Shown in pieces: positions 2,926 to 40,125 of a stretch of DNA of 64,000 nt. Numbering within the stretch: the stretch's first letter is position 1; the number at the start of each line of letters is the position of its first letter. This DNA is from an uncultured Gammaproteobacteria bacterium (lineage in GTDB: Bacteria; Patescibacteriota; Microgenomatia; UBA10105; UBA927): NCBI GenBank assembly GCA_964367095.1, contig CAYIXE010000001.1:2803-66802 (forward strand). The letters are read 5' to 3'. The notes beneath the pieces were generated by a model. The model was not told the DNA's origin. It worked only from the letters and a program-made list of their open reading frames with translations, and did not search any database. A program made the translations under genes and the position numbers.

Positions 2926-4035
2926 TCATTCGATTGATTCTAACAGTGTAAATGCTTCGTAATAATACTGCTCATATTCAAATTCTTCTGCAAAGAATTG
3001 CACGCCCTGTTGATATTGAGCGTATTGAGTTTGTATCTTTTTTAATGCAGTTGATAACTCTGATACACTCTCTATCACGAACCCTGCATGAAATTTACGT
3101 ATGAATGAAACGATGGCTGATGTATTCGTCATTATAACTGGCAGTCCCATTTCTATATATGTTTTTACCTTTCCAGGGTCAGTATAGTGTGTAGCAGTAT
3201 GTACGCCTTTTTCATACAGCGCGATTCCTACATGATGACGAATACTTAGTTTTTTGAGTTCTTCATCACTCACAAACGTGTTCGGGAACCAAACTCGATT
3301 TGAAATTTTATATTTCTTAATTAACAAAACATAGTTATCATATAGCGTCCTCTCGCATACACCAATAATTGATAACTCTACTTTCGAAGTATTTTTTATA
3401 AAAAGCAACAAATCCTCAATACCCTGAGAGGGACGGATCGCGCCTACAAATATTAATCTAAACGGAGATGTAATCGTTTTTGAAGGACCTGTATACGCTT
3501 TTACACCCCACATAACTGTTTTTTTATTCGGAAGACTAACGATCTTACCGTTATAAATACTATTTATTTTGTCACTTAAATAGTACGTAAAGGGTATTCG
3601 ATCATGGTAATATTTTTTCAGTTTTTCAAAAAGGATGAGTGACCAATGCACTGGAGGGTAATAATCTCCTATCCAGTATACATACTCCACTTTTCGCACG
3701 AGCTTGATAATACTCATGCCAAAGAATGCAATAGGATGGCCAGCCAAGATAAAAACATGTTCATTTCGAGAAAAATAGGTAAAGAGCGTCGTGGTATGGT
3801 GATAAAACCACAGAACATAATAGAGAAACAGGTTTGATGACGTCGAAATGATTCGTTTCTCTTGTACGTTTCCTTCTTTATACACCCAAAGCTCGTTTGA
3901 AATTCCACTCAACCTCGGCATAATGACATAAATGACCAGTTTTCTTGTGTGTTTGATAAAGTAATTCATCGTATTCCCGACGCTTTGCAGGCTTCCGTAC
4001 ATAAATATAGTGTCATAACGAAATATAGCTTTCAT
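2926..4035 (-). CDS. GT4 (GT-B fold) glycosyltransferase
   Basis: GT4-like C-terminal half (FVGAIRPSQGIEDLL...GLPVIMT). ATGA overlap with the gene at 4032. Confidence 0.65.
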   Translation of the reverse strand: MKAIFRYDTIFMYGSLQSVGNTMNYFIKHTRKLVIYVIMPRLSGISNELWVYKEGNVQEKRIISTSSNLFLYYVLWFYHHTTTLFTYFSRNEHVFILAGHPIAFFGMSIIKLVRKVEYVYWIGDYYPPVHWSLILFEKLKKYYHDRIPFTYYLSDKINSIYNGKIVSLPNKKTVMWGVKAYTGPSKTITSPFRLIFVGAIRPSQGIEDLLLFIKNTSKVELSIIGVCERTLYDNYVLLIKKYKISNRVWFPNTFVSDEELKKLSIRHHVGIALYEKGVHTATHYTDPGKVKTYIEMGLPVIMTNTSAIVSFIRKFHAGFVIESVSELSTALKKIQTQYAQYQQGVQFFAEEFEYEQYYYEAFTLLESIE

Positions 4036-4904
4036 TTCTTTTTAAGAATGCTGACAATATTGCTTGCTCCGTAAGAAAAACGACTAAAGTATTCATCTAC
4101 CTTTTCTCCCCTTTTGTCCCATCGCGAATCTTTCGTAAGCATTTTAAACGCTAAACAAACTATCTTTCCCAAACTCCCCGTATAATACGTCTTCATTTCT
4201 CTAAATCTACTGAAACCCACAAGAATTCGTTCCCTTGTATACCGGCGGAGATGACCAATCCTTCTATCGTGAATCATGTTTATCGGCCAAAGAAATGGCC
4301 AAACATATTTTAAATGAATGGGCATTGCAAGCATCAACAAAGCCTTATTCTTAAGCACACGCTCAATTTCTTTGATAGCTTTTTTTTCCTGCGGAAGGTG
4401 CTCTAATATTGCATTTGCCACCATCCCGTCAGCGCTTTTTGCTTTTATGGGTAACTCCTCGGAACTTGCACAGGTTAATAAAACATTTTTTTGTAATTTC
4501 AATTTTGCAATATTTACTCTAAGCTTGTGTAGTTCTGCAAACGTCAAGTCAGTTGCGATGACATGAAACCCACGTTTCGCTAACTCAATCGCCATATATC
4601 CACTTCCGGTCGCGTTATCTATGATAAGCCCCTTCGTCTGCACAGAGGAAGAAATAAAATTGTCTATATATCTTTTTTGCCATGGCTCCAATACGTATGA
4701 TTGTCGAGATAAATCTTCCTTTTCAAAATACTTCACCTGATTTTGTAAATGAGTAGGTAATGTGGAAAGATTAACAAGTATTGGTATTCCATTTACTATT
4801 GCATACTGCTTCTTACACTTTCGACAATATAAACTCTTTGATTCACTCACAAGCGAGTGTTTACATATTGGACAACAAAGGTATTTAAGCAAAAGATGAT
4901 TCAT
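4032..4904 (-). CDS. SAM-dependent methyltransferase with N-terminal Trm112-like zinc-ribbon
   Basis: N-terminus LKYLCCPICKHSL...YCRKCKKQYAIVNGIPILV (Trm112/DUF343-like CxxC...CxxC), followed by the class-I MTase motif IIDNATGSGYMAIELAKRGFHVIATDL. Confidence 0.7.
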   Translation of the reverse strand: MNHLLLKYLCCPICKHSLVSESKSLYCRKCKKQYAIVNGIPILVNLSTLPTHLQNQVKYFEKEDLSRQSYVLEPWQKRYIDNFISSSVQTKGLIIDNATGSGYMAIELAKRGFHVIATDLTFAELHKLRVNIAKLKLQKNVLLTCASSEELPIKAKSADGMVANAILEHLPQEKKAIKEIERVLKNKALLMLAMPIHLKYVWPFLWPINMIHDRRIGHLRRYTRERILVGFSRFREMKTYYTGSLGKIVCLAFKMLTKDSRWDKRGEKVDEYFSRFSYGASNIVSILKKK

Positions 4905-8304: not shown

Positions 8305-9279
8305 TTACTTTTTACTTTCGTTATACCACTCAATCGTTTTTTTGAGACCCTCTTCTAATTTCGTTTTCGCACGAAAACCAATTTTTTCAATAGCTTTTGT
8401 GTTATCACTATTTCTTCTCGGAGATCCGTCGGGCTTTGATGTATCAAATTCAATTTTTGTTTTCTTTCCTGACATGGACACAATCATTTCCACCAAGTCT
8501 TTTATCGATACTTCTTCATCAGTCCCAATATTGACAGGATCTGGCACAGGATATTTGTCTATGGCGTCAATGAGACCCTTGGCAAAGTCCTCCACATATA
8601 GAAACGCTCGAGTTTGTTTGCCACTTCCCCACACGCGCAAGGGATTCTCTCCATCAAACACTCGTTTGATAAGTGCCGGTATCACGTGAGATTTCTCAAT
8701 GTCGAAATGATCACGAGGTCCATATGCGTTATATGGCCTCACAATGCCCACCTTCATCCCATACTGCTGACTATAATACATTCCTAGCTTTTCTGCCATG
8801 CGCTTGGCCCATCCGTATCCGCCGTTGGTCGGCTCTGGCTCTCGTAAAAATCCTTCTGATTCGGCAGTTGGAATTTTGGCATCTGCGGGGTAAATACACG
8901 CTGACGATACAACTAAAAATCGCTCAACTTTTGTAAGTCTTGCCGCTTCAATCATAACGGAGGCAATTTTTAAATTATCAAAAAGCATGGTGGCCTGATG
9001 AGTTCGATTATATTCAATACCGCCCACTTTAGCTGCCAAATTCATCACCACCTGTTGCCCTTGACATGCTTTCAACGCATCCTGTTCACTCGCGCAGTCG
9101 CCTGAAATAAACTGAACTTTATCCTTAAGATATAGAATATTTTTGATTACTCCATCTCTCATGCGATCATATACCGTAACCTTTGCACCGAGAGACACAA
9201 GCTGTTCTACCACATGACTACCGATAAATCCAGTGCCCCCGGTCACTAACGCTTTTGTGTCCTGCCAAAAATTATTCAT
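8305..9279 (-). CDS. GDP-L-fucose synthase-like SDR (3,5-epimerase/4-reductase family; ColC/Fcl-like)
   Basis: [20 protein letters not shown] and [16 protein letters not shown] match Fcl-family signatures (SSCIYP ... VWGSG.P.REFLHVDD). The track start at 9351 is TTG and overlaps a conserved promoter motif, so the ATG at 9279 ([15 protein letters not shown]) is preferred. Confidence 0.6.
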
Positions 9280-9312
9280 AGTTCCACCAATTTCATAGTC
9301 GCTTCCTGATAG

Positions 9313-9350
9313 ATTGTAGTATATCGTTTCTCTGATTGAATCGCCATCCA
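9313..9350 (-). promoter_or_regulatory. conserved promoter-like motif (copy 2 of 2) upstream of the Fcl-like SDR gene
   Basis: TTGTAGTATATCGTTTCTCTGATTGAATCGCCA is near-identical to 4938-4975. Its distance to the downstream ATG (9279) is about 37 nt, the same as copy 1. Confidence 0.4.
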
Positions 9351-9420
9351 AACGTTACTATCGTGCTACTAGCAATACATTTTGCCTTTTAACCTAAATT
9401 TTACCAACATACTCCCTCTA

Positions 9421-9448
9421 CACTTTCATTTATCGATAAATGAAAGTG
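9421..9448. promoter_or_regulatory. 28-bp perfect palindrome CACTTTCATTTATCGATAAATGAAAGTG (copy A), directly abutting the stop codon of the TrpR-like gene; candidate operator
   Basis: Exact 14+14 palindrome read from the sequence, identical to 9840-9867. It sits about 70 bp upstream of the conserved promoter motif of the downstream sugar operon. Confidence 0.6.
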
Positions 9449-9832
9449 TTACTTGTGATACCGCCGAAGATTGTACGCGAGTGTCTTTACTACCTTTTTC
9501 CAAAAATCTTCCATCTCCTCGCTATACATGCGTTTTTGAAGAAGCTTTTTTGTACTTTCTCCACCCTTATCCAACCATTCTGACACACGATTAATAGTAG
9601 AGGTGCTTACATGTAAAATATATACAATATCTTCGTAGTTAAATTGCTTATGAAGCATCATTGCAACCGCGAGACGTTTGGCAAACATAACACGTTCTGT
9701 CTTTGTAAAAAAATCATAGTAAAACGCTTTGACATCTTGCGGATTACGAATAGATTGAAGAACCCAAAGAAAATCATCCCTAATTGAATAATATACATCT
9801 TTATCAACCGGTCTTTTTGAAAGCTGTGTCAT
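9449..9832 (-). CDS. TrpR-like (YerC/YecD family) transcriptional regulator
   Basis: 127 aa. MFAKRLAVAMMLHKQFNYEDIVYILHVSTSTINRVSEWL fits the Trp-repressor-like YerC/YecD family. Flanked on both sides by identical palindromes. Confidence 0.6.
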   Translation of the reverse strand: MTQLSKRPVDKDVYYSIRDDFLWVLQSIRNPQDVKAFYYDFFTKTERVMFAKRLAVAMMLHKQFNYEDIVYILHVSTSTINRVSEWLDKGGESTKKLLQKRMYSEEMEDFWKKVVKTLAYNLRRYHK

Positions 9833-9839
9833 ATATCCT

Positions 9840-9876
9840 CACTTTCATTTATCGATAAATGAAAGTGAAATGTCAA
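9840..9876 (-). promoter_or_regulatory. autoregulatory promoter/operator: consensus -35 TTGACA (rc of 9871-9876) followed by the 28-bp palindrome (copy B, 9840-9867), which overlaps the -10 position; GAGGA SD and ATG at 9832
   Basis: Transcribed strand reads TTGACA-TTT-CACTTTCATTTATCGATAAATGAAAGTG-AGGATAT-ATG. ATAAAT/GATAAA lie 17-18 nt after the -35, inside the palindrome. Confidence 0.55.
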
Positions 9877-9925
9877 GAGAGTATTTATAGTATTGGAGGG
9901 ATAATTATTTTCTCTAGGCTACTAT

Positions 9926-11113
9926 TCACACGTTTATCTTCGTAAATATTTTGACTATTGTATTCATTTCCTTTTTCGTCAATTCTGGATTGTTACCAAA
10001 ATAGAGCCCTTGCGTATGCACGAGCTCAGCATTTCGCGTATTCATTTTTGCGGCCTTGCCTTGATAGCGACGGAAAAAAGGCTGTTTGGTCATATCGCCA
10101 CCCACCACTGGTCGTATTTCTACTTTTCCATCACACGCTTCTACCAGCGCGTCACGAATTTTCTGCGATCTACAAATCACCGGTACAGCAAAATTAGAAA
10201 CCCTATCGATATGATTGTATCTTATGGGATAAAATAAATCTGTTCTGGCATAAATTTGTTTTGCCATATATAAAAAATTCTTTTCTCGCTTTCGTATAAT
10301 TTCAGGAAGATACTGCATTTGATTATTACCCAAAAATCCCTGAATTTCTGTCGTTCTCAAGTTATACCCCAAATCATAAAATGTGTATCGGGAATAAAAG
10401 GTAGAATTCACATCGTGTTTTACTCTCAAAAATAATTGTTTATCTTCCGTCAAATTACGATCCCACCCATGTGCACGTACTAGATGAAGCATGGTCATAA
10501 GTTCTTCGTCATCCGTCACGACTGCACCGCCCTCAACGGTCGACATATGATGACCAACATAGAATGAAAATGTACTCGCCAGTCCCCAATTACCAAGCTT
10601 TATGCCTTTATATACTGTGCCCAATGACTCACAATTGTCTTCAATAAATATAATTTTTTGTTGTTTACACAATCGGGCTATGGCATCTATATCATCACAA
10701 AACCCCAAAAGATTTGTAAGAAATAACATTTTGATCTTGTTTTTTTTGAGGACCTCTTCTAGCGTGCGTGTAGAAATATTGAGCGTGTCAAGCTCTATAT
10801 CGATGGCGATAGGATTTAGACCTAATTGTATAAGCGGCATGACGTTTGTCGACCACGTTAATGCAGAAAAACCGACTGCATCTCCTTTTTTGATCCTCCC
10901 CAAATTAAGAAGTGCTTGAATGAGAGCTAAATTTGCTGAACTCCCACTGTTTACGAAGAGACAATATTTACGATCTTGATAGTTCGAAAATTTCTGTTCG
11001 AATTTACGACATTGTTCACCAATACTTAATTTTTCTGCTTTCAAGATAAACGTGCACAACAGTTTTTTTGTATTCTTTTCGTTGTAAAACGTCGATTTAA
11101 TCAGTGGAATCAT
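9926..11113 (-). CDS. PMP/PLP-dependent sugar 3-dehydratase of the DegT family with a ColD/RfbH-type His-His active site (GDP-4-keto-6-deoxymannose 3-dehydratase-like)
   Basis: VNSGSSANLALIQALL...IKKGDAVGFSALTWSTNVMPLIQLGLNPIAIDI...IEDNCESLGTVYKG...SFYVGHHMSTVEGGAVVTDDEELMTMLHLVRAHGWDRNL parallels ColD (LEDNCESMGAT...SFYSHHIATMEGGCIVTDDEE...IRAHGWTRNL). The usual PLP lysine is replaced by His. No CxC...CxxC Fe-S motif as in RfbH/E1. Start taken at the ATG at 11113 (MIPLIKSTF...). Confidence 0.7.
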   Translation of the reverse strand: MIPLIKSTFYNEKNTKKLLCTFILKAEKLSIGEQCRKFEQKFSNYQDRKYCLFVNSGSSANLALIQALLNLGRIKKGDAVGFSALTWSTNVMPLIQLGLNPIAIDIELDTLNISTRTLEEVLKKNKIKMLFLTNLLGFCDDIDAIARLCKQQKIIFIEDNCESLGTVYKGIKLGNWGLASTFSFYVGHHMSTVEGGAVVTDDEELMTMLHLVRAHGWDRNLTEDKQLFLRVKHDVNSTFYSRYTFYDLGYNLRTTEIQGFLGNNQMQYLPEIIRKREKNFLYMAKQIYARTDLFYPIRYNHIDRVSNFAVPVICRSQKIRDALVEACDGKVEIRPVVGGDMTKQPFFRRYQGKAAKMNTRNAELVHTQGLYFGNNPELTKKEMNTIVKIFTKINV

Positions 11114-24417: not shown

Positions 24418-25188
24418 TCACGATGCAGACATAAACTTTTTGTATGCCATAGGAAAATGGATGCTCGAGAATAGCGCAAACTGAAACCCCTGCCATCCGT
24501 CTACAAACCCCTTATGGCGAAGATAGATCGAAAAAAACGTACCAATCGGTTTGACCAAACAATACGATAAAAATAAATTAAACGTGGGTGTTTTATATAT
24601 CTTTCGCAAATCTAGAGCTGTAAGCGAGGTATACGTGTCTGCCTTTGCCCAGTATTCCTCAAGAGTATTGTTGGTGTAATGCAAAAGCGGTTCTTTAAGC
24701 GTTCCGATCTCTCCATCTATGACAATCTGTTCATGTACTGACTTGCAAGGTAACATGCCTTTACCCCTTTTAAACAATCGAACAAGATAGTCAGGATACT
24801 GTCCGCCTTTGGAAAGCCATTTGCCAATGAAGAAATTTTTGCGCGGCATTTGATACCCGGCATTTGTATTCTTTTTCTTTATTACTGACAGAATTTCGGC
24901 GCGAAGCTTTGGGCTTATGACTTCATCAGCGTCCAACTGCAATATCCAATCGCTCTTGCATGCATCTATGGCATACTGCTTATTGATATGAAACATCGCT
25001 GGATTATCTCGTTTAGAAATGTTCGCACCATACTTCTTTGCAATTTCAAGAGTTCCGTCAGTTGATCCGCCATCGACCAAGACTATTTCATCAACCCACG
25101 AAACTACAGAGGCTAAACATGCTTCTAATTTAATAACTTCGTTATATGTAGCAATTGCCACTGATAATGTTACCTTCTTTTTTGCCAT
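24418..25188 (-). CDS. GT2 glycosyltransferase (WaaE/KdtX-like)
   Basis: LSVAIATYNEVIKLEACL...IVLVDGGSTDGTLEIAKKYGA...LQLDADE. Confidence 0.7.
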   Translation of the reverse strand: MAKKKVTLSVAIATYNEVIKLEACLASVVSWVDEIVLVDGGSTDGTLEIAKKYGANISKRDNPAMFHINKQYAIDACKSDWILQLDADEVISPKLRAEILSVIKKKNTNAGYQMPRKNFFIGKWLSKGGQYPDYLVRLFKRGKGMLPCKSVHEQIVIDGEIGTLKEPLLHYTNNTLEEYWAKADTYTSLTALDLRKIYKTPTFNLFLSYCLVKPIGTFFSIYLRHKGFVDGWQGFQFALFSSIHFPMAYKKFMSAS

Positions 25189-26852
25189 AACCGCATTGTA
25201 ACAAGAAACCCCAAGAGTACAAAAATACCACCTATAGAAATCCAGTTAGAGAGTTTTCGAAACTTTGTATCGGAAAATATAATTTCAACATCATGCACTC
25301 CCTCGGGAACATCAAATGTTAACAGTCCTCGATAATTAGGGTTTTGAAATTCAATAGGAACGCGCGTTTTATCGACAAATACTTCCCAATTGGGAAAATA
25401 AAGCGTATTTTCGACAAATTTCATGGATGTTGATGAAGAAACAGCATATGAATGATATGTGCTATTTCTACGTCCGACTTCAATAGTCACATCCTTTCCA
25501 CTGATTAGCTCAATCGGCGCTTTGGCTCTCGTTTCCATAAAACGAATAGACCAAATCGGTGAACTTTCTCCTGTATCCGTAGTGCCGTTATAGACGCTGG
25601 TGAAATTACTGTCAGGCATCGATACATACTCTTTTGCGTGCCACATGGGAATGGTTCCGACAATTGCGATAGTACACAATAATCCCATCATCCATATCTT
25701 CTCTTTTTTAGAAACTATACTTATCCCAATAGCACCAACAATCGACGTTGCAAATACTGCAACACTCATCAGCCGCCAAGGAAATTGAAACTTTTGCAGA
25801 AGCGATATCGATTGCCAAACAGGCAACGCTGCATTGGTCATAAGGAAAAGTGAGAAAATAAATATGGCGACTGCCGCTATAGTGAATATCTGCATTTTTC
25901 GATTCGCTTTGGAAAACTTCACCAAGACCAATACCAACCCCAGAAGCTGTGCCACACCAAGGCTCTTACTAAACTCATTTCCACCCCCATAGTTCCACGC
26001 TGACCACAGAAACCACCGCAGCGGCACAAATCGAGTCTGAAAATCTCCGACGGTCACGATATCTCGAAGCGTATATTTCCCCTCAACAAATGCAGGTATC
26101 CAAAAAAATGCTGATAATATGAACCCAAGTGTAATACAGATAACGCTTGTGATGAAAAACCGACGTTTATCTTTTGACTCATAGACAAAAAGGTATAAAG
26201 CGTAGACACCTGCTATAGGCAAAAACATAATACTCAATGCATTATGTGAAAGAATTAATCCCGCCACACCCAACGCAACTATAACCTCCGCCTTTATTAT
26301 TCTCATATATCGATATATGAGAATTTTGGGAGTATCAAAAGATTGCTTAGCTAACATATAAAGTCCAAACATCACAAACGGTAAAAAAATAAAAGCCATA
26401 TGTTCCCCAATCGCCCCGCGAATATAGATATCGACAAACCGATAGGGAGCAAATCCATAAAGGATAGCCGCTGTAATCCCCGCTTCCATGCCCCATGCGG
26501 CATTAACCCACAGAAACATGGCAAACATGCTTGCAATAAACCCAAATGCAAAAACGAGCTTGACACTTTCTACCAATGAAAATCCAATCGTATGAAACGC
26601 TGACGCGATGTAGGATGGCAGCGGATACAAAAACATCATCACCGGATGCCCGTATCCCCAATTAAGGTTGCCAGCCCATCGCGGAACAAGGTTGCCTTCA
26701 GAAAGTGATTGATAGAAGTTGGCAATCCTTGCCACATGATCCTTACCATCATGCGTTATGGGCAATCCTGAGTTAAACAAGTCAAAAAGGGGCAAGATGG
26801 AAACAATAAGAAGTACGAACCAGATAACCAAGAGTGGAAGTAATCGCTTCAT
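25170..26852 (-). CDS. GT-C fold membrane glycosyltransferase, short YfhO-like paralog (2 of 5)
   Basis: ITHDGKDHVARIANFYQSL...VPRWAGNLNWGYGHPVMMFLYP. C-terminal YFPNWEVFVDKTRVPIEF...VPEGVHDVEIIF. Confidence 0.5.
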   Translation of the reverse strand: MKRLLPLLVIWFVLLIVSILPLFDLFNSGLPITHDGKDHVARIANFYQSLSEGNLVPRWAGNLNWGYGHPVMMFLYPLPSYIASAFHTIGFSLVESVKLVFAFGFIASMFAMFLWVNAAWGMEAGITAAILYGFAPYRFVDIYIRGAIGEHMAFIFLPFVMFGLYMLAKQSFDTPKILIYRYMRIIKAEVIVALGVAGLILSHNALSIMFLPIAGVYALYLFVYESKDKRRFFITSVICITLGFILSAFFWIPAFVEGKYTLRDIVTVGDFQTRFVPLRWFLWSAWNYGGGNEFSKSLGVAQLLGLVLVLVKFSKANRKMQIFTIAAVAIFIFSLFLMTNAALPVWQSISLLQKFQFPWRLMSVAVFATSIVGAIGISIVSKKEKIWMMGLLCTIAIVGTIPMWHAKEYVSMPDSNFTSVYNGTTDTGESSPIWSIRFMETRAKAPIELISGKDVTIEVGRRNSTYHSYAVSSSTSMKFVENTLYFPNWEVFVDKTRVPIEFQNPNYRGLLTFDVPEGVHDVEIIFSDTKFRKLSNWISIGGIFVLLGFLVTMRLWQKRR

Positions 26853-28492
26853 AACGTAAATGCAATAATTGCTTCTTTCCCGTCAAGATTCTTAAATATA
26901 TTTACCACGCGTTTTTGCGTAGGCGCATCTTTACTATCAGCAATATACAGCGTATCAGCTTTGAGCACTTCTGTAGACCAGTTTATTGAGCGAAATTCCA
27001 CATTCCCAAATCTATGCGGCTTGTCATATCCGCCTGACACACTGCCGCCGAGTGTTTGATAGAGGTTAGGATCAAACGATGAATAAAAAAGGTAAAACAT
27101 ATACGACTGGTACAAATTGCCGTTATTTGAAAAGACGATTTGTTTATATTCATTTTTCGTTCCCTGTACAAAAGCCATCGTATCTTCCATGGCATACTGA
27201 AACGAATCTGATTGTGTACGAGGAAACGTTATAAAATACCCTTTTCCAAACTGCATGAGGCTTAATAAAATAATTCCTCCTACGATAATCCATCGCGTCC
27301 ACGTAAATTTTCTTGCGACATACCATAATTCCAACACGCCGACCCCGCTTAATAACGCCAATGGAGGAAGCCATGTAAAGCTGCGCATTGCGTGTGGCGC
27401 TTGGGTTGTAATCGCGGCGGGCAATGGGCCTGAAAGTCCCCACACCAATAAAAAAAGCAGTACACGAAAATCTATATTACTAAAAACAATAAGATAAATA
27501 AGCCCCACAAGTATACTTACCAATTCCCATGAATACAAAAGGCCCATATTCGGTACTTTGTGTGCTTCCCGTTCGCTTCCCATAAATAACCATGATGGGA
27601 CAAAGTGAGAAAAGTAATTACTGGCAAAAACTCGTGCCATAACTACTTTACGATTATGTATTATCTTTCCTATAACGTCGTTAGAACTTTTTGCAATTTG
27701 TAAGGCTTGAAACGCTTGTGTATACACTGGGGCATCGACAGAGAATGCACTCGTACCTTTAAGCCTGCTCAATCCCTCACCGGTAACCGTTACATACACA
27801 GCAGGAAGTACAATAAGAAGAAATACACCTGCTGATATACACACCACTTTTATATGTTTTACGCATTCTTTCCAATACATTGCGCCAAATGCTATAAGAA
27901 GAATTGGAGTGATGAGTTTTTGGCTTTGATACCCATGAAGTGAGACGCCAAACAATATTGATGCCCACAAAAGATACCATTGTTTTTTTTCTATAATAAA
28001 CACACACAGTGCGTACACTCCCGCAAGCGTTAACGTAAATCCTAAATTCGCTTCATGTCCTAAACGGGAAATGTAAATATGCCACGGCGATATTGCCATA
28101 AGAAACGATACTGCCTCACCTAAATATCGTAATCGGCTGTTATACCGCGAAAAAAGCTTACCGAGACAAAACATCAGATACACAGCAAAAAGCGACAAAA
28201 TTATAGATGGAAATCGAACAGCTAAAGATGAAAGACCCATAAATTTTACAAACGGGATGACAATGTATACGTACATCGAAGGACGCCAATCATCATACGC
28301 GCGAAGAAGAAGCGGCAATCTATACCCGTATTCATCTTTGCCCGTCGTAAGTATGGAATATGCGTTATAGCCGATGGAAACTTCGTCAAGAGAAGGTGAA
28401 GGCGGCACAATAGCCAATGCATATAGCCGCAAAAATGCTGAAAGAAGTAAAATGAACGTGAAACCTAAATATGTACGATTAAACATAGACAT
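26849..28492 (-). CDS. PMT_2 / GT39-GT83-like (ArnT/PMT family) GT-C glycosyltransferase (1 of 5)
   Basis: PSLDEVSIGYNAYSILTTGKDEYGYRLPLLLRAYDDWRP...VRFPS, with the first-loop DE motif and a DDW/DDY second motif. About 11 TM plus a C-terminal soluble domain. Confidence 0.65.
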   Translation of the reverse strand: MSMFNRTYLGFTFILLLSAFLRLYALAIVPPSPSLDEVSIGYNAYSILTTGKDEYGYRLPLLLRAYDDWRPSMYVYIVIPFVKFMGLSSLAVRFPSIILSLFAVYLMFCLGKLFSRYNSRLRYLGEAVSFLMAISPWHIYISRLGHEANLGFTLTLAGVYALCVFIIEKKQWYLLWASILFGVSLHGYQSQKLITPILLIAFGAMYWKECVKHIKVVCISAGVFLLIVLPAVYVTVTGEGLSRLKGTSAFSVDAPVYTQAFQALQIAKSSNDVIGKIIHNRKVVMARVFASNYFSHFVPSWLFMGSEREAHKVPNMGLLYSWELVSILVGLIYLIVFSNIDFRVLLFLLVWGLSGPLPAAITTQAPHAMRSFTWLPPLALLSGVGVLELWYVARKFTWTRWIIVGGIILLSLMQFGKGYFITFPRTQSDSFQYAMEDTMAFVQGTKNEYKQIVFSNNGNLYQSYMFYLFYSSFDPNLYQTLGGSVSGGYDKPHRFGNVEFRSINWSTEVLKADTLYIADSKDAPTQKRVVNIFKNLDGKEAIIAFTL

Positions 28493-28497
28493 GCCTT

Positions 28498-30159
28498 TTA
28501 CTCTGCAATTCGTATCGCCTCAAATCCATTAAGAAATGAAATTCTGTATATGGGATCTGTACTAATTTCCCGCGGTGTTCCTACATACAAAATTGAACCG
28601 TCGTGCAATTCATTAGGCCAGTTAATAGGCCGAAATTCATACACATCAAATTTATTTCTCACCTCAGCAAATCCACCCGACGCTGTACCGCCTCCAGCTA
28701 GATATAATCTGGGATCATATTTCATAAAAAATAAATAGAACATGTGCGGTTGTTCTAATTTCGTAGACACAACTATCTTCTTATACTTTGATTTATGCGC
28801 CTCTGTATACTCGACTGCTTGTTTGTATCCATATTGCCAAAATTGTGAATACTCAATATTCATGTGCGAATAGTACATATGAAAGTAATAGCCGATGTTA
28901 CATATTGCAGCAACAAAACTAGAAACGATAATGACGAACACAACGAGTCTCATTTGTTTTGTGACATGCTTAATCGTTTCTTTTCCATACATATACGCGC
29001 TGTATAAACCAAAGGCAGTAAAAACCTGAAGTAGCGGCAATGTGACAAGAGTTCTTATCGCGTGAGGAGTTTCAGACGTGGGAGATGCAGCGATGGGGGC
29101 TAAAAGAAGCCAGCCAAAAAGCAAATTTCGTATAACCCCTCCGCGCTTTATCACCACTACCATGCCCCACAATAAAAATGGCAGCTCCCAAAGGTACAAA
29201 AGTCCCGTATCAGGCGCATGATGTCTATCGTTGTCCCCGCTTAAAAACAACCATTTGAGAGAAAAGTGCGACAAATATCCTTCTGCAATTGTTTTTATAT
29301 AGACGATTCTTCTGTTCTCCCAAATTAATCCCATCAGATTTCCGTTTTGTAGATCATCCTCTAACTTTGATACGCTTTTAGCGAGTAACCCCGTCTGATC
29401 AGAGAGACTGCTAGTGCCTTTGAGCCGCGTAAGTCCGTCTTTTCCAAAAACGACGGGTAATAATGGACCGACGATAATAATTCCTATAAATATCGATACC
29501 AATACATATTTCCACTTTGAAAGAAATTTCTTAAAAAACACTATGAATGCCAAAAGTATAAGAAGTGGTATAAATACGCGCTGACTATGATACGCGTAAA
29601 ATCCTAAGCCCAAAATAAGCGCCGATACCGGCATATATTTTCCGTTTGTCAAAGACTTCAGAAGAAAATAAAGACCCCAAATATTCAGCGTTACCCCAAT
29701 ATTAGCTTCAAATGCAATGCGCGAAAATTGCAAATGCCACGGGGAAATTGCCAACAAAAACATAACCATAAACGGCAAAACGGCAGTAATATCTGTGTAT
29801 TTTCTTTTTTGTGTCTCAATAAGACTTAAAAGTGCGACCGTAAGAAAATATGCGCCTATAACACCCAACACGCCATTTATAGCTGCCGGTAGACGAACAC
29901 TATACGTAGACAATCCCAAATACTTCACCGTTGGGATCGCAAGATATGCATAAAGCGGCGGTTTATAATCATCAAATGATCGAAGTGCCAGGGGCCACCG
30001 CGTCCCGTACTCATCTTTGCCAGTTTTAAGCAACGAATATGCGTTGTATCCTAACGCCGCTTCATCCCAATCAGGGCTTGGCGGCACGACGCCTAACTGC
30101 CAAAACCGTAGTATTGCGGCAAGTATGACAATTGATATAAGTATTAATGTTTTTTTCAT
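28498..30159 (-). CDS. PMT_2 / GT39-like GT-C glycosyltransferase (2 of 5)
   Basis: PSPDWDEAALGYNAYSLLKTGKDEYGTRWPLALRSFDDYKP...VRLPAA. Confidence 0.65.
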   Translation of the reverse strand: MKKTLILISIVILAAILRFWQLGVVPPSPDWDEAALGYNAYSLLKTGKDEYGTRWPLALRSFDDYKPPLYAYLAIPTVKYLGLSTYSVRLPAAINGVLGVIGAYFLTVALLSLIETQKRKYTDITAVLPFMVMFLLAISPWHLQFSRIAFEANIGVTLNIWGLYFLLKSLTNGKYMPVSALILGLGFYAYHSQRVFIPLLILLAFIVFFKKFLSKWKYVLVSIFIGIIIVGPLLPVVFGKDGLTRLKGTSSLSDQTGLLAKSVSKLEDDLQNGNLMGLIWENRRIVYIKTIAEGYLSHFSLKWLFLSGDNDRHHAPDTGLLYLWELPFLLWGMVVVIKRGGVIRNLLFGWLLLAPIAASPTSETPHAIRTLVTLPLLQVFTAFGLYSAYMYGKETIKHVTKQMRLVVFVIIVSSFVAAICNIGYYFHMYYSHMNIEYSQFWQYGYKQAVEYTEAHKSKYKKIVVSTKLEQPHMFYLFFMKYDPRLYLAGGGTASGGFAEVRNKFDVYEFRPINWPNELHDGSILYVGTPREISTDPIYRISFLNGFEAIRIAE

Positions 30160-30161
30160 GG

Positions 30162-31787
30162 TTACAACTCAAATATCACAAGCCCGATAAAGCCATTTAA
30201 TAGCGGAATGTTTTTTAAAACCTTTGCGTTCTGCGGGACTTCGTTTACCGGAAGTATATAGAGCACGCGACCCTCATACTTCTCATTGACGTGTCGCACA
30301 AATCGATATTTGCCAAACCGATAAACATTATAAAATCCCTCTTTATCAAACGAGGCATTTTTGGTCGTTTGAAAAAATGAAAGATCATACTTTCCATAAA
30401 ACAAAGTATAAATATATGGTCTCCCGATACTCTCAGTTAGAACAATAACGTCGTAATCATCCTTCACACTCTCGGCATATTGAATTGCCTCACGGTATCC
30501 ATACTGCCATTCGCCAGAATATTCTTTTTTATAATGTGTCGTATACGTATGCCAAAAATAACCAAAGTTTCCAAGCACTAAAAGAACCATGACAATACCA
30601 ACCAATAACCGCAGTTTTTTGCCAACAAACACACCCAAAAACTGTACGCATCCATATGCCGTGACGATGATCCATACCGGTAAACCGTTTTCCACCCGAA
30701 GCGCATGAGGCGTCTCACGAGCAACCGCTGCGGGCGCTATGGAGGCTAAAAGCCAAAATAGAAGCAATCCCGCTATTTTCGTCTGTCGCGAAAATAGTGT
30801 TAACCATCCGATAAAAACAAACGGAGCTGTGACAAGGAGTAACTGTCCTATATCCTGGGTAGAAAATTTCGGATTCCCGTCGCCCTTTATAAAAAGAAAC
30901 CGCGGCTCGAGATTATCAAAAAAATGCAGCAAATATTCCCTTCCGTATCCAATTCTACGATTATGAACAATTTTGGACCACCAGGCGTTGCTGTCTGCCA
31001 AGCTTCTGACATTTGAAATTAATACCGTTTCAAGATTTGTAAATATACTCACCTCCTGGAACCGAAGTCTGGCTTCTTTCGAAACAAGGTGAGGCATAAG
31101 CGGCAGTAAAGCAATTACAGCGATAATCAATCCTTTATAAAAAGAAGTTTTCGCTTTCGAAATTGCATTCCACGAAAAAACCAACACTCCAAAAGCGATA
31201 AGAGGTCCTGCATATCGTGCTGAATTAAACGTATACATGCCTAAGACAAATGGTAAAAATGCGAAGGGCAATACGCTTGAATTCTTTCGTGAAACTAATA
31301 GAAGATACACGCCAAGTGAAATAAAAAATGTAGCAATATTTGCTTCAAATCCAGCTCGAGAGAGCATAATGTGCCACGGAGAGATAGCCAAAAATAAGGC
31401 GCTTGTCAGCGCAAGTCTTTGATTGGAAAACAACTCCTTCACAAGAAAATAGATAAGTAACACCGTCAGTATTCCAAAAATAGCCGATGGCAACCGAACT
31501 GCCAAATCAGATAAACCAAAAATTGCGATAAAAGGTATAGTAAGATAAATAGGAAGTGATGGTTTGTAATCACCAAATGCGGCAAAGGCACCCAAGGGAA
31601 ACCGTACACCATGCTCATCAGTGCCACTTGTTAAAATAGTATACGCGTTGTAGCCTATAGATACTTCATCCCACGAAAGCGCTGGCGGATTAGAGGTAAG
31701 ATTTGTAAGTCTAAACCATACTGCAAAAACAACAATAATTCCCAATAGAATAGAGCTAACTTTCATATTTTTCCAAAATTTTTTCAT
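30162..31787 (-). CDS. PMT_2 / GT39-like GT-C glycosyltransferase (3 of 5)
   Basis: PPALSWDEVSIGYNAYTILTSGTDEHGVRFPL...FGDYKP...VRLPSA. Confidence 0.65.
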   Translation of the reverse strand: MKKFWKNMKVSSILLGIIVVFAVWFRLTNLTSNPPALSWDEVSIGYNAYTILTSGTDEHGVRFPLGAFAAFGDYKPSLPIYLTIPFIAIFGLSDLAVRLPSAIFGILTVLLIYFLVKELFSNQRLALTSALFLAISPWHIMLSRAGFEANIATFFISLGVYLLLVSRKNSSVLPFAFLPFVLGMYTFNSARYAGPLIAFGVLVFSWNAISKAKTSFYKGLIIAVIALLPLMPHLVSKEARLRFQEVSIFTNLETVLISNVRSLADSNAWWSKIVHNRRIGYGREYLLHFFDNLEPRFLFIKGDGNPKFSTQDIGQLLLVTAPFVFIGWLTLFSRQTKIAGLLLFWLLASIAPAAVARETPHALRVENGLPVWIIVTAYGCVQFLGVFVGKKLRLLVGIVMVLLVLGNFGYFWHTYTTHYKKEYSGEWQYGYREAIQYAESVKDDYDVIVLTESIGRPYIYTLFYGKYDLSFFQTTKNASFDKEGFYNVYRFGKYRFVRHVNEKYEGRVLYILPVNEVPQNAKVLKNIPLLNGFIGLVIFEL

Positions 31788-36161: not shown

Positions 36162-38488
36162 AATTCAAAGACATATTCATTGGGGCAGGAATAAGCATAA
36201 TTCTTGTTTGTTTTCTTTTTTACAAATCTATTTTTTATGGGGCAATCCCGTTTCCCGGAGATTCTCTTCTTTCTCACTTCAAACCGTGGCAAGTTACTTC
36301 CTATGATGGCTATGGCGCTGGCGGCATACCAAATAAAGCACAATACCCAGATGTAATACGACAAATGTATCCTTGGCGAATAGAGGCTATACGCCAATGG
36401 AAAGAAGGAAATGTTCCACTTTGGAATCCCTATAGTTTTTCAGGCACTCCGCTTCTTGCCAATTTTCAATCAGCAAGTTTATACCCTTTCAATACCCTTT
36501 TTCTTTTCTTACGCGAGACAACTGCATGGACCGTACTTATAGCATTGCAGCCCTTACTCGCAATCTTTTTTACATTCCTCTATTTACGTATCATGAAGCT
36601 AAGCATTCTCGCTTCTCTATTTGGTGGGATATCGTACGGCATAAGCGGATTTATGACCGTATGGCTGGAGTACAACACGGTCGGACACATTATGGCGTGG
36701 TTTCCGTTAGCACTTTATGCAATTGAACATTTTAACCCCACATTGCTCACTATTTCAATCACTCTTTCATTACTATCAGGTCATCCGCAAGTCGCACTCT
36801 ATGCTATTTTATTTACCTCCATATACGCAGCTTTTCGATTACAAGGAAAGAATAAACTCTATGCACTTCTCTCACTTTTTGTAGGATTTGGCATTTCAGC
36901 CGTCCAACTTGTCCCCGGTATTGAGCTTTTAAGTGTCGCCGCGCGAGCTAATCACTCTTATGAACAAATGATGAAAACCATACTCATCCAGCCATGGCAA
37001 ATACTCATGGCTTTTTTTCCAAATCTTTATGGCAATCCTGTTTCTCGCACGTATTGGCCGTTAGACACTTATGTAGGAAAAGTAACGTCCATAGGTCTTA
37101 TTCCATTATTTTTTCTTCTTTCTTCGATACGACTCTATAAAGAGTCTCTCATACGTTTTTATGCTCTTTCAATACTTTTTCTTGGCATATACATTACAGC
37201 AAATCCTATCACAGCCCTCCTCTACTCATTCTCAATTCCTATCATATCGTCAAGCAGCCCGACGCTTTCAATATTTATATTTTCATTTTGCTTATCAGTA
37301 CTTGCAGCTTTCGGCGTCGATTTGTGGATACAAGAAACACATAGTGTCAAAAAGCTTATCATTCGGGCAATTGAAGTATGTGCAGGAATACTTATCATCG
37401 CAAGCATCTTTATGCTTCTTCCGTCGCTTAAAACCCATGCGTCGGTCGCTCTCCGTGCACTTTTTTATGGCGGCGCTATTTCCGCATTAACCGTATGTAT
37501 CTTTTACATTGCCATTCGTTATAAAAAATGGATGATCCCAATACTGTGGATTCTTTTGGCAATTCATTTTTTTGATCTCTCGTACGCATTTTTCAAGTTT
37601 AACCCGTTTGTCCCAACGTCATATATGTATCCTGACCATACCGTGAGCGATTACCTCAAAAGTCAAAAAAAACCGATGCGGTTTTGGGGGTATGGCACTG
37701 CGGCGATTGACGCAAATATTCCGACACTCTGGCGAGTTTACTCTCCCAATGGCTATGATCCACTGTATCCTAAATGGTACGGCGAATTTATAGGCGCGTC
37801 CAAAGACGGCAAGCTTCTTCGTTTATTTGGAAATAATAATCGCTCTGATGCGACCATTGCATCCGGATTTGGTGAGGCTGACTTTCAAGACAATACCTAC
37901 CGAAAACAAATTCTTCGCTCACTTGGTGTTTCCCTTATCATTGATAGACAAGAAAACGGCACGAGTGAAAAAACATTCCCGCCAAAAAATTATTCACTCA
38001 CCACCGTTTCAGATTGGCGTGTATTTACCGATATTGACGCACCACTAATTGTTAGGATAGCAACTAGATCAAGCGTTGCCAACACAAAAGAAGATTTTGA
38101 ACGGATATTTTTTCATCCATCCTTTAACCCAAAAGCAGATGTCATTGTTTCTGATCCCGCCATACCAACTCTTAGCGGAAATGGGAGTGTAGAAATGAAT
38201 ATCTATTCTCCAAATTTCATACAAGCAACAACAAAAACGAAAGGGATTACCATGCTTGTAATCGCAGACACCTACTACAAAGGATGGAACGCGTATATTG
38301 ATAAAAACCCTGCTCCCTTATATCGCGTGAACTGGACTATGAATGGGATATTGCTTCCCGAAGGCGACCATACGATCGACTTTTTGTATGAACCTATCTC
38401 TTTCACCATAGGATTATGGGCATCAGCCTTGTCATTGGGGTTATTAGTTGGTATCGTCGTATTCACACACCAAAAAAGGAAGCAATGA
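36158..38488 (+). CDS. YfhO-family GT-C glycosyltransferase (long form, 776 aa)
   Basis: PFPGDSLLSHFKPWQV...YPWRIEAIRQWKEGNVPLWNPYSFSGTPLLANFQSASLYPFN. C-terminal YYKGWNAYIDKNP...LPEGDHTIDFLYEP. Confidence 0.55.
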   Translation: MKFKDIFIGAGISIILVCFLFYKSIFYGAIPFPGDSLLSHFKPWQVTSYDGYGAGGIPNKAQYPDVIRQMYPWRIEAIRQWKEGNVPLWNPYSFSGTPLLANFQSASLYPFNTLFLFLRETTAWTVLIALQPLLAIFFTFLYLRIMKLSILASLFGGISYGISGFMTVWLEYNTVGHIMAWFPLALYAIEHFNPTLLTISITLSLLSGHPQVALYAILFTSIYAAFRLQGKNKLYALLSLFVGFGISAVQLVPGIELLSVAARANHSYEQMMKTILIQPWQILMAFFPNLYGNPVSRTYWPLDTYVGKVTSIGLIPLFFLLSSIRLYKESLIRFYALSILFLGIYITANPITALLYSFSIPIISSSSPTLSIFIFSFCLSVLAAFGVDLWIQETHSVKKLIIRAIEVCAGILIIASIFMLLPSLKTHASVALRALFYGGAISALTVCIFYIAIRYKKWMIPILWILLAIHFFDLSYAFFKFNPFVPTSYMYPDHTVSDYLKSQKKPMRFWGYGTAAIDANIPTLWRVYSPNGYDPLYPKWYGEFIGASKDGKLLRLFGNNNRSDATIASGFGEADFQDNTYRKQILRSLGVSLIIDRQENGTSEKTFPPKNYSLTTVSDWRVFTDIDAPLIVRIATRSSVANTKEDFERIFFHPSFNPKADVIVSDPAIPTLSGNGSVEMNIYSPNFIQATTKTKGITMLVIADTYYKGWNAYIDKNPAPLYRVNWTMNGILLPEGDHTIDFLYEPISFTIGLWASALSLGLLVGIVVFTHQKRKQ

Positions 38489-40122: not shown

Positions 40123-40125
40123 TTA

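What the first reader, a model, noticed from the sequence alone, without database searches (positions are those of the whole stretch)
9421..9876. TrpR-like regulator gene bracketed by two identical 28-bp perfect palindromes, one overlapping its own near-consensus promoter
CACTTTCATTTATCGATAAATGAAAGTG occurs at 9421-9448 and again at 9840-9867, 28/28 identical with no spacer. The 127-aa YerC/YecD (TrpR-like) gene sits exactly between the copies. The upstream copy lies between a perfect -35 TTGACA (9871-9876 rc) and the GAGGA-ATG, overlapping the -10 position; this is the classic autorepression geometry. The downstream copy abuts the stop codon and sits about 70 bp upstream of the conserved promoter motif of the downstream sugar-nucleotide/GT4 operon (8305..9279 onward). 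So this small regulator probably gates part of the glycan locus. An alternative reading is a palindrome-bounded mobile cassette carrying the regulator.
Basis: seen in the sequence. Interest (0 to 1): 0.7.

Follow-up and report, generated by a model that had tools for sequence, protein, structure and literature searches.

The report
Repressor gene bracketed by its operators
A small TrpR-type DNA-binding protein gene in an uncultured ultra-small (CPR) bacterium sits between two identical 28-bp palindromes, and the same arrangement, each time with a lineage-specific palindrome, surrounds its relatives across CPR bacteria, so the palindromes are most likely the protein's own binding sites for self-control.

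Summary
CACTTTCATTTATCGATAAATGAAAGTG occurs only at 9421-9448 and 9840-9867, flanking a 127-aa TrpR-fold gene (9449..9832, minus strand).

It is a family-wide architecture, not a local oddity. I examined 61 distinct homologues from CPR/Patescibacteria. A palindrome of 26-30 bp lies 0-9 nt before the ATG in 41 of 61. One lies -3 to +7 nt after the stop in 38 of 56. That is about 40 times the background rate.

Within a locus the two copies are about 96% alike; between loci they are about 50% alike. Palindrome type tracks the recognition helix. Two paralogues in one genome each carry their own pair.

The upstream copy overlaps the gene's promoter or transcription start. The downstream copy is not associated with any promoter.

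Best reading: these are the protein's own operators. The upstream one gives autorepression; the downstream one acts as an auxiliary bridging or roadblock site. No binding data exist.

REP-like repeat, transposon, intrinsic terminator and known-RNA readings are rejected. The ancestral position of the gene is after proS. The window's lineage moved the cassette into a glycan locus, beside a repeated promoter. A role in gating the glycan genes remains unproven. A third related palindrome lies at 26299-26324.

The parts
9839..9868 (.). Upstream palindrome (O-up). The 28-nt perfect core is 9840-9867 and it extends to 30 nt. It ends 7 nt before the ATG and lies between the -35-like TTGACA and the start codon.
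   Evidence: Identical 28-mers sit upstream of homologues L001, L010, L019 and L026.
9871..9876 (-). -35-like hexamer TTGACA, 3 nt upstream of O-up. It is conserved in the near relatives L001, L010, L087 and L088. The hexamer 17 nt downstream is GATAAA, a weak -10.
9836..9840 (-). Shine-Dalgarno-like GAGGA. Its first G is the last base of the palindrome, and only 3 nt separate it from the ATG.
   Evidence: Read from the sequence.
9449..9832 (-). TrpR-fold regulator gene, 127 aa. It is a long-form CPR subfamily member with two extra C-terminal helices (residues 92-126).
9420..9449 (.). Downstream palindrome (O-dn). The 28-nt core is 9421-9448, and the 30-nt form overlaps the last base of the TAA stop. 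No promoter and no T-run are associated with it.
9318..9346 (-). Promoter-like motif of the next sub-operon, read by eye: TGGCGA, 17 nt, TATACT. It is repeated at 4939-4969. It is the junction at which the cassette's position differs in L010.
26299..26324 (.). Third long perfect palindrome, ATTCTCATATATCGATATATGAGAAT. It matches the bracketing palindrome at 10 of 13 arm positions and equals the downstream site of homologue L009. It lies inside a membrane-protein ORF. It is a possible extra operator, or the target of a paralogue encoded outside the window.

Best explanation
The two palindromes are the cognate operators of the TrpR-fold protein encoded between them. This is the local copy of an architecture shared by a large CPR/Patescibacteria subfamily of long-form TrpR-like proteins, about 125-155 aa.

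In that subfamily the gene is bracketed by two copies of a lineage-specific palindrome. The conserved core is 26 bp, often with ACT...GAT | ATC...AGT arms, and the palindrome extends to about 30 bp.

**Inferred mechanism**
- Symmetric protein oligomers bind the upstream site. A 26-bp site exceeds the 18-20 bp TrpR/HisR operators, so two dimers or a tetramer are likely.
- The upstream site overlaps the gene's own sigma-70-type promoter or transcription start and ends 0-9 nt before the ATG. Binding there shuts off the gene's own transcription.
- The downstream site abuts the stop codon and is not part of any promoter. It most likely acts as an auxiliary operator.
- It could bridge to the upstream site, closing a 0.40-0.49 kb gene-sized loop, possibly through the extra C-terminal helices. 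It could also block transcription running out of or into the gene.

**Shown:** the sequence architecture, its conservation, the within-locus match of the two copies, their divergence between loci, and the TrpR fold.

**Inferred:** binding itself, repression, the stoichiometry, and the loop or roadblock role.

In the window's lineage the whole cassette moved from its ancestral place after proS to just upstream of a repeated promoter of a sugar-nucleotide/glycosyltransferase sub-operon.
For: **Frequency of the bracket**
- Only these two copies occur in 64 kb.
- Among 61 distinct homologues, 41 of 61 upstream flanks and 38 of 56 downstream flanks (73 nt each) hold a palindrome with arms of at least 10 bp. 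Background from 276 kb of the same loci predicts 0.017 per flank.

**Conservation of the sites**
- Copies within a locus have a median identity of 96% over 24 nt, against 50% between loci.
- Symmetry holds to 13 nt either side of the dyad. All pairs change on both sides across lineages: 84.6% paired against 33-43% when the pairing is slid.
- The palindromes are 55/56 identical between the window and L001, where surrounding DNA is about 78% identical.
- The upstream sites of L019 and L026 equal the window 28-mer although the proteins are only 61-67% identical.

**Link to the encoded protein**
- Palindrome type follows the recognition-helix type.
- L017 has two paralogues 1.5 kb apart, each bracketed by its own, different palindrome.
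- The protein has the TrpR fold. It matches PF01371, and Foldseek gives target-normalised TM-scores of 0.70-0.84 to 3frw, 3g1c, 3kor and E. coli TrpR.
- YerC/HisR relatives bind 20-bp palindromes with consensus cacTTTAn6TAAAgtg, and about half are autoregulated (PMC9413887). The window site has the same outer half-site, CACTTT...AAAGTG.

**Promoter geometry**
- A TTGAC-type -35 lies within 40 nt of the upstream site in 16 of 40 loci, against 15% in controls. Distances fall into two classes: 1-13 nt (operator over the spacer and -10, as in the window) and 28-38 nt (operator over the start site).
- Downstream sites show no such -35.
- In L025 a third copy sits 14 nt after a TATAAT, ahead of an inserted Nudix gene.

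**C-terminal extension**
- Long forms carry the bracket: 28 of 46 have both sites and 43 of 46 have at least one. Of short forms lacking the C-terminal helix, 1 of 10 has both.
Against: - There are no binding or expression data.
- The palindromes are 26-30 bp, longer than TrpR/HisR operators. Their half-site spacing does not fit the HisR geometry.
- The arms covary more perfectly than recognition by a symmetric protein strictly requires. In L007 the two copies share an 18-bp core but have different outer arms, each self-complementary. In several Gottesmanbacteria loci the upstream site is CTTTCAT/ATGAAAG and the downstream site is CTTCGAT/ATCGAAG. This suggests hairpin or cruciform selection, or template-switch homogenisation of palindromes.
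- As RNA the sites would fold stably, at -14 to -15 kcal/mol.
- Centre-to-centre distances of 403-488 bp show no helical phasing (Rayleigh p about 0.5-0.7), so looping has no positive support.
- The window's -10 element is weak.
- Correlations with the recognition helix and with protein length are confounded by phylogeny.
- Sites were picked because they are palindromes, so the pair statistics are partly circular.
Confidence: 0.66

Rival explanations
1. The palindromes act as RNA, not as protein-binding DNA. A 5' hairpin would control translation or stability and occlude the ribosome-binding region. A 3' hairpin would terminate or stabilise the transcript.
For: - Both copies fold as 13-14-bp hairpins at -14 to -15 kcal/mol, z-score -4 to -5.
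- In class II loci the upstream copy starts at or just after the predicted start site, so it would be transcribed.
- Self-complementarity is kept even where the two copies of a locus differ.
Against: - A structural hairpin does not need the same sequence at both ends, nor a paralogue-specific sequence.
- The 61 mismatches in the core show no G-U preference: GT 13, AC 14, other 34.
- There is no T-run and no terminator call. The same CPR loci hold ordinary GC-rich hairpin-plus-T-run terminators elsewhere.
- Downstream copies abut or overlap the stop codon, where a terminating ribosome would hinder folding.
- In the window and other class I loci the -35 lies 1-13 nt from the site, so the start site would fall inside or after it.
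- No Rfam family matches.
Confidence: 0.12
2. The downstream copy is mainly the operator through which this regulator controls the adjacent sugar-nucleotide/glycosyltransferase operon.
For: - In both the window and L010 the cassette, with its roughly 130-nt leader, sits directly upstream of a copy of the same promoter motif, although in front of different genes.
- A third related palindrome lies inside the same locus at 26299-26324.
- L025 shows that such regulators can have a site at a neighbour's promoter.
Against: - The downstream copy is a family-wide feature fixed to the regulator's stop codon whatever gene follows. That includes housekeeping neighbours and a gene called on the opposite strand in L007.
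- No -35 accompanies it.
- By my reading of the sequence, its centre lies about 118 nt upstream of the next start site in the window, too far for promoter occlusion.
Confidence: 0.15
3. The unit is a mobile cassette bounded by palindromes, or a repeat family of the REP/MITE kind that happens to flank this gene.
For: - The cassette occupies different positions in the window, L010 and L087, and lies after proS in L086.
- Contexts are not conserved among distant CPR clades.
- The two copies are both direct and inverted repeats of each other.
Against: - Only the HTH protein is encoded; there is no transposase or recombinase. PHROG and PADLOC give no hit, and no viral contig holds the 22-mer.
- Synteny proS -> regulator -> ChrB_C-like -> HIT -> S21 -> YqeY -> YbeY -> DnaX is conserved in more than 20 loci.
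- The gene diverges along with its flanks: 92% in the cassette against 76-94% in neighbouring blocks for the window versus L010.
- Only two copies occur in 64 kb, and extra copies are rare in 276 kb of related loci.
- The position change in L010 is explained by recombination at the repeated promoter motif.
Confidence: 0.04
4. The palindromes are recognised by some other factor, such as a different DNA-binding protein, a restriction-modification enzyme or a cruciform-binding protein. Their linkage to this gene would then be indirect.
For: - Dyad centres are classic enzyme sites (TCGA, ATCGAT, TTCGAA).
- The perfection of long palindromes is unusual for operators.
Against: - The palindrome sequence changes with the recognition helix of the enclosed protein and differs between paralogues in one genome.
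- No other gene is consistently linked across clades.
Confidence: 0.03

Closest known systems
HisR (YerC/YecD), the histidine repressor of the TrpR family in Firmicutes and others (PMC9413887)
   Same: - TrpR fold and PF01371 membership.
- The recognition helix is close: STSTINRV here, STATISRV in S. aureus 3kor.
- Palindromic operators whose outer half-site cacTTT/AAAgtg matches the window's CACTTT/AAAGTG.
- Frequent autoregulation through a site upstream of its own gene.
   Different: - The window protein scores below the TIGR02531 cutoff.
- It is 127 aa against under 100 aa, with two extra C-terminal helices.
- The site is 26-30 bp, not 20 bp.
- No his genes are nearby.
- A second copy after the stop codon was not among the passages on HisR sites that I retrieved from that paper.
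E. coli TrpR and its trp/aroH/trpR operators, including tandem dimer binding (PDB 1tro, 1trr)
   Same: - Same fold, with target-normalised TM-scores of 0.70-0.80.
- Autoregulated.
- Symmetric operators containing ACT/AGT half-sites.
- Several dimers can occupy one extended operator. From my own knowledge of TrpR, the 8-bp TCGA periodicity seen in several CPR sites resembles the 8-bp CTAG periodicity of trp operators.
   Different: - About 15% sequence identity.
- TrpR has a single operator at its own promoter, with no site after the gene.
- The ligand here is unknown.
Auxiliary-operator and looping repressors: lac O1-O2 (401 bp apart), gal OE-OI, and lambda CI OR-OL, which enclose the cI-rex genes (from my own knowledge)
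   Same: - Two like operators a few hundred bp apart, one at the promoter and one promoter-less.
- In lambda the repressor gene itself lies between the operator sets.
   Different: - Looping is not shown here and there is no helical phasing.
- The proteins are unrelated.
- Here the second site is fixed to the stop codon of the repressor gene in many lineages.
REP/BIME and other extragenic palindromic repeats
   Same: Short palindromes in intergenic DNA next to stop codons.
   Different: - Not dispersed: two copies in 64 kb.
- The sequence is specific to the gene, and even to the paralogue.

Membership tests
TrpR family (Pfam PF01371) | Sequence match above the curated cutoff | tested here: met
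   49.5 bits against a cutoff of 27, residues 20-100. All 57 homologues carry PF01371.
TrpR family (Pfam PF01371) | All-helical TrpR fold with a helix-turn-helix | tested here: met
   AF2 model with pLDDT 81.6 and seven helices. Foldseek top hits are 3frw, 3kor, 3g1c and E. coli TrpR, with target-normalised TM-scores of 0.70-0.84. The profile hits the same PDB entries at E 1e-13 to 1e-15.
TrpR family (Pfam PF01371) | Binds a palindromic operator as a dimer, dependent on a corepressor | not testable with these tools
   Only in-silico support: conserved cognate-looking palindromes. No binding assay and no ligand prediction.
YerC/YecD = HisR (NCBIfam TIGR02531) | Score above the family cutoff | tested here: not met
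   37.3 bits against a cutoff of 42.2.
YerC/YecD = HisR (NCBIfam TIGR02531) | 20-bp operator cacTTTAn6TAAAgtg upstream of his or histidine-transport genes | tested here: not met
   The outer half-site is shared, but the site is 28 bp. Neighbours are glycan genes, or proS and housekeeping genes in relatives. No his genes appear in any locus examined.
REP-like dispersed palindromic repeats | Many copies per genome, independent of any one gene | tested here: not met
   Two copies in 64 kb, none further with up to 3 mismatches. Extra family-type copies are rare in 276 kb of related loci. Whole genomes could not be scanned.
Insertion sequence / MITE | Transposase, terminal inverted repeats, and variable insertion sites with empty sites | tested here: not met
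   No catalytic domain. Conserved synteny in more than 20 loci. One relocation is explained by recombination at a repeated promoter motif.
Intrinsic (rho-independent) terminator | GC-rich stem-loop followed by a T-run | tested here: not met
   No terminator-like site in 9200-10000. The stems are AT-rich with no separate loop (the dyad centre is itself palindromic) and no T-run, whereas canonical terminators occur elsewhere in CPR loci.
Dual-operator looping repressor systems | Two operators of like sequence, one of them promoter-less | tested here: met
   Upstream and downstream copies are 96% alike. A -35 is enriched only at the upstream copy.
Dual-operator looping repressor systems | Helical phasing of the operators, or a demonstrated bridging oligomer | tested here: inconclusive
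   No phasing over 29 loci, but loops over 400 bp need little phasing. The extra C-terminal helices correlate with the bracket. The oligomeric state was not testable.

The most novel reading that the evidence does not exclude
A CPR-wide family of long-form TrpR-like proteins forms self-contained, self-insulating regulatory cassettes. The family holds up to about 1,800 clusters at 50% identity, though that count may include other TrpR relatives.

In this reading the protein clamps both ends of its own gene through two cognate palindromes. Tetramerisation through a CPR-specific C-terminal extension would close a gene-sized loop. The whole module, with promoter-operator, gene and operator, can be transplanted as a unit in front of other operons. 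The window would show this in a glycan locus, wiring that operon to the regulator.

This would be one of the few conserved transcription-factor systems of Patescibacteria, and a previously undescribed operator geometry for the TrpR superfamily.
Probability: 0.25. Interest if true: 0.7.

Novelty: new variant of a known kind. Interest (0 to 1): 0.55.

Why it matters
Gene regulation in CPR/Patescibacteria is almost unexplored, and these organisms have very few recognisable transcription factors.

- **A ready set of predictions.** A widespread regulator family comes with its predicted operators, since each gene carries two copies of its own site. These give dozens of natural helix-to-operator pairs for decoding TrpR-family specificity.
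- **A testable model.** The arrangement suggests auxiliary-operator control at gene scale, which can be tested directly.
- **A local question.** For the window, a cell-surface glycan locus may have been wired to this regulator.

If it proves to be only an autoregulated orphan repressor, it remains a tidy but modest comparative-genomics result.

Tried and rejected
- **REP-like repeat.** Rejected on copy number and on gene- and paralogue-specific sequence.
- **Transposon, MITE or phage origin.** No catalytic domain, no PHROG or PADLOC hit, and no viral contig holds the 22-mer. Synteny is conserved.
- **Intrinsic terminator or known RNA.** No terminator call and no Rfam match.
- **RNA-specific pairing.** Looked for G-U enrichment among stem mismatches and found none.
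- **DNA-loop phasing.** Rayleigh tests at periods of 10.0-11.3 bp were flat.
- **Downstream copy as the promoter-operator of the next gene or of an antisense promoter.** No -35 on either side.
- **A second TrpR-like gene in the window that would own the third palindrome.** None found in a six-frame HMM search.
- **HisR geometry.** I tried by hand to fit the 28-mer to the 20-bp HisR site, or to two HisR-type dimers offset by 8 bp. The inner half-sites do not line up.
- **MAFFT alignment of the sites (A3).** It shifted some rows, so I redid the alignment with artificial GC anchors (A4) before counting pairs.
- **Literature.** Full-text searches for TrpR/YecD together with Patescibacteria/CPR, and for regulators with sites on both sides of their own gene, gave nothing relevant beyond HisR.
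Full report
**Observation**

The 28-mer CACTTTCATTTATCGATAAATGAAAGTG occurs exactly twice in the 64-kb window, at 9421-9448 and 9840-9867. There is no further match with up to three mismatches, and none is expected by chance. Each copy is a spacerless perfect palindrome that extends to 30 nt.

Only three perfect palindromes with arms of 13 bp or more exist in the window: these two and one at 26299-26324.

The ORF 9449..9832 on the minus strand (127 aa) fills the space between the two copies. Read on the minus strand, the order is:
- TTGACA at 9876..9871
- 3 nt
- the upstream palindrome
- AGGATAT
- ATG

The downstream palindrome starts directly after the TAA stop.

The -35 is perfect, but the hexamer 17 nt downstream is GATAAA, and the consensus scan does not call a promoter there.

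**The protein**

It matches Pfam Trp_repressor at 49.5 bits against a cutoff of 27. It falls below the cutoff of the YerC/YecD model TIGR02531, at 37.3 against 42.2 bits.

A profile of the family finds the crystal structures 3kor, 3frw and 3g1c. An AF2 model (pLDDT 81.6) has seven helices. Its best structural matches are those three proteins and E. coli TrpR, with target-normalised TM-scores of 0.70-0.84.

Residues 92-126 form two helices that TrpR and HisR (about 100 aa) lack.

Homologues come from Candidatus Gottesmanbacteria and other Patescibacteria. A profile search of 1.84 billion cluster representatives finds 1,821 clusters at E ≤ 1e-10; the 150 best-scoring are mostly 125-155 aa. That count may also include other TrpR-family proteins.

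**The bracket is a family trait**

I retrieved loci for homologues through exact-protein look-ups, a scan of species-representative genomes and a metagenome scan. These gave 61 distinct proteins.

- A palindrome with arms of at least 10 bp and at most one mismatch lies in the 73 nt before the start in 41 of 61.
- One lies in the 73 nt after the stop in 38 of 56.
- Background in 276 kb of the same loci is 0.23 per kb, or 0.017 per flank.
- The upstream copy typically ends 0-9 nt before the ATG. The downstream copy starts between -3 and +7 nt of the stop, and a few lie 14-32 nt away.

Each lineage has its own sequence. Examples:
- CTTCGATGTTTCGAAACATCGAAG in L006
- TTTTCATATATTAATATATGAAAA in L014
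- ACAACATACGATATATCGTATGTTGT in a Nomurabacteria genome, L018

Within a locus the two copies have a median identity of 96% over 24 nt, against 50% between loci.

Symmetry is kept to 13 nt either side of the dyad and decays to background by about 17 nt. On a dyad-centred alignment, 84.6% of cells pair, against 56.5% in shuffles and 33-43% when the pairing is slid. Every pair shows changes on both sides. That statistic is partly circular, because the sites were chosen as palindromes. The enrichment and the within-locus match are the independent evidence.

- Palindrome type tracks the sequence of the recognition helix: STSTINR with ..CATTTATCGATAAATG.., STATVYR with ..CATATATTAATATATG.., SPSTIAR with ..ATACGATATATCGTAT...
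- Locus L017 holds two paralogues 1.5 kb apart. Each is bracketed by its own, different palindrome. This removes 'genome-specific structural element' as an explanation.
- The sites are under stronger constraint than the surrounding DNA. Between the window and L001 they are 55/56 identical, against about 78% around them. L019 and L026 carry the window's exact 28-mer upstream of proteins only 61-67% identical.
- The characterised relatives behave this way. YerC is HisR, a histidine-dependent repressor that binds 20-bp palindromes of consensus cacTTTAnnnnnnTAAAgtg. About half of hisR genes have such a site upstream (PMC9413887). The window palindrome begins CACTTT and ends AAAGTG, and the recognition helix (STSTINRV) resembles that of S. 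aureus 3kor (STATISRV).

**Promoter geometry**

A TTGAC-type -35 lies within 40 nt upstream of the 26-bp core in 16 of 40 loci, against 15% of control windows. The distances fall into two classes.
- At 1-13 nt the operator covers the spacer, the -10 and the start site. The window, L042, L084 and L054 belong here.
- At 28-38 nt the -35, spacer and -10 fit in front, and the operator begins at about -1 to +9. L007, L063, L067 and L048 belong here.

Both are classic repressor positions.

Downstream copies have no such -35 on either strand: 4 of 37 and 1 of 37 weak matches, none of them TTGAC. The downstream copy is therefore not the operator of a promoter of its own. It is fixed to the regulator's stop codon whatever follows.

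**Role of the downstream copy (inference)**

The most economical reading is an auxiliary operator. It could raise occupancy of the promoter site by bridging, which would close a loop of 403-488 bp. It could also act as a roadblock at the gene's end.

Support is indirect. The bracket goes with the long-form proteins that have the extra C-terminal helices: 28 of 46 have both sites and 43 of 46 have at least one. Among short forms, 1 of 10 has both. This comparison is confounded by phylogeny.

There is no helical phasing. For loops over 400 bp that neither supports nor excludes looping.

**The RNA-hairpin rival**

In its favour:
- The sites would fold at -14 to -15 kcal/mol.
- Self-complementarity is kept even where the two copies of a locus differ. 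In L007 the outer arms differ between copies, and in several Gottesmanbacteria loci CTTTCAT contrasts with CTTCGAT.

Against it:
- Sequence identity between the two ends, and specificity to each paralogue, are not needed for a hairpin.
- Tolerated mismatches show no G-U bias: GT 13, AC 14, other 34.
- There is no T-run or terminator call, while the same loci contain ordinary GC-rich terminators elsewhere.
- Downstream copies touch or overlap the stop codon.
- No Rfam family matches.

The excess symmetry may instead reflect binding by two dimers, or template-switch homogenisation of near-palindromes. That second idea comes from my own knowledge and was not tested.

**Context and history**

In all Gottesmanbacteria-type loci the gene lies in the order proS -> regulator -> ChrB_C-like -> HIT -> S21 -> YqeY -> YbeY -> DnaX. 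L086, whose protein is 86% identical to the window's, is also proS-linked and has both palindromes of the window type.

The window, L001, L010, L087 and L088 form a sublineage in which the cassette sits in a glycan locus.
- In the window it lies between a DegT-type aminotransferase and two epimerase/dehydratase genes followed by a GT1-family glycosyltransferase.
- In L010 it lies between that three-gene block and a methyltransferase gene.
- The junction is a repeated promoter-like motif, read by eye as TGGCGA, 17 nt, TATACT. It is present at 9316-9346 and 4939-4969.

So the unit of promoter-operator, gene, operator and leader has moved, apparently by recombination at that motif. The gene diverges in step with its neighbours. 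There is no transposase and no phage or defence signature. It is not a mobile element in the usual sense.

In distant CPR clades the neighbours are not conserved.

**Does it gate the glycan locus?**

This is not shown. The bracket itself says nothing about glycan genes. By my reading of the sequence, the downstream copy's centre is about 118 nt upstream of the next start site.

Two hints remain.
- The cassette sits just upstream of the same promoter motif in two different arrangements.
- The third palindrome at 26299-26324 (ATTCTCATATATCGATATATGAGAAT) matches the bracketing site at 10 of 13 arm positions and equals the downstream site of L009. It lies inside a membrane-protein ORF whose window paralogues look like a glycosyltransferase-type family. 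It may be a weak extra site, or the target of a second paralogue encoded outside the window; none is present inside it.

L025 shows that family members can have an extra site at a neighbour's promoter, 14 nt after a TATAAT and ahead of a Nudix gene.

**Verdict**

The operator and autorepression reading is well supported by comparative evidence, but no binding has been shown.

The glycan-gating claim is open, and the mobile-cassette and REP readings are rejected.

This is a new variant of a known kind: a TrpR/HisR-family repressor with an apparently undescribed, conserved two-operator bracket in a CPR-specific long-form subfamily. Full-text searches found no prior description.

Noticed in passing
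window 26299-26324: Third long perfect palindrome, ATTCTCATATATCGATATATGAGAAT, inside ORF 25170..26852 (minus strand, 560 aa membrane protein), where it encodes ..ILIYRYMRI... It matches the bracketing palindrome at 10 of 13 arm positions and is identical to the downstream site of homologue L009. No second TrpR-like gene is present in the window.
   Followed up: partly
window 9316-9346 and 4939-4969: Repeated promoter-like motif, read by eye as TGGCGA, 17 nt, TATACT, ahead of two sub-operons: the epimerase gene 8305..9279 and the methyltransferase gene 4032..4904. It is also present in L001, L010 and L088, and it is the junction where the cassette's position differs between the window and L010.
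   Followed up: partly
window 9371-9386 (minus strand); matching stretches in L001 and L010: Small hairpin about 35 nt after the downstream palindrome, in the roughly 130-nt leader. The pairing seems kept through different sequences, as judged by eye: GCAA/TTGC in the window, AGACAA/TTGTCT in L001, CAAATA/TATTTG in L010. Function unknown.
   Followed up: no
window 5026-6078 (plus strand) and 4998-5016: The only plus-strand gene in this stretch of the locus encodes a Fic-domain protein. It matches the PADLOC models SoFic and PDC-S04, which are candidate defence proteins. It is absent from the corresponding place in L010. A 19-nt palindrome, GCGTATCATTATGATACGC, lies just before its start.
   Followed up: partly
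L017 6542-6567 and 7037-7080: A second TrpR-like paralogue (6572-7003, 143 aa) lies 1.5 kb from the first. It is bracketed by its own palindrome, core TTTATCTTATAAGATAAA. The downstream site is doubled.
   Followed up: yes
L025 1944-1971: An extra family-type palindrome, CACTTTCATCTATTGATACATGAAAGTG, lies 14 nt after a TATAAT and about 100 nt before a Nudix-hydrolase-like gene (Nudix box recognised by eye). That gene is inserted between proS and the regulator.
   Followed up: partly
L082 1830-1880 and 5556-5608 (also L083): Two copies of a GC-rich palindrome of about 50 nt, GTCCCCCATGTCGGACTTAGGGGATTTTCCCCTAAGTCCGACATGGGGGAC, in a Nomurabacteria-type locus. They look like a dispersed hairpin repeat and are unrelated to the TrpR-like sites.
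   Followed up: no
L010 (CAYHQC010000002.1) and L013 (CAYVAR010000005.1): Public records titled 'uncultured Gammaproteobacteria bacterium' carry these genes. The L013 contig, read as L007, has the Gottesmanbacteria-type proS synteny, and L010 encodes a protein 100% identical to the window's. The organism labels look wrong.
   Followed up: no
window about 25-42 kb: An array of six paralogous genes for membrane proteins of about 550 aa. Four lie on the minus strand (25170..31787) and two on the plus strand (38416..41796). They are 15-20% identical to one another and account for the long imperfect inverted repeats reported by the repeat finder. They look like GT-C/PMT-type glycosyltransferases, but only the first was scanned against Pfam, and it gave no hit.
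   Followed up: partly
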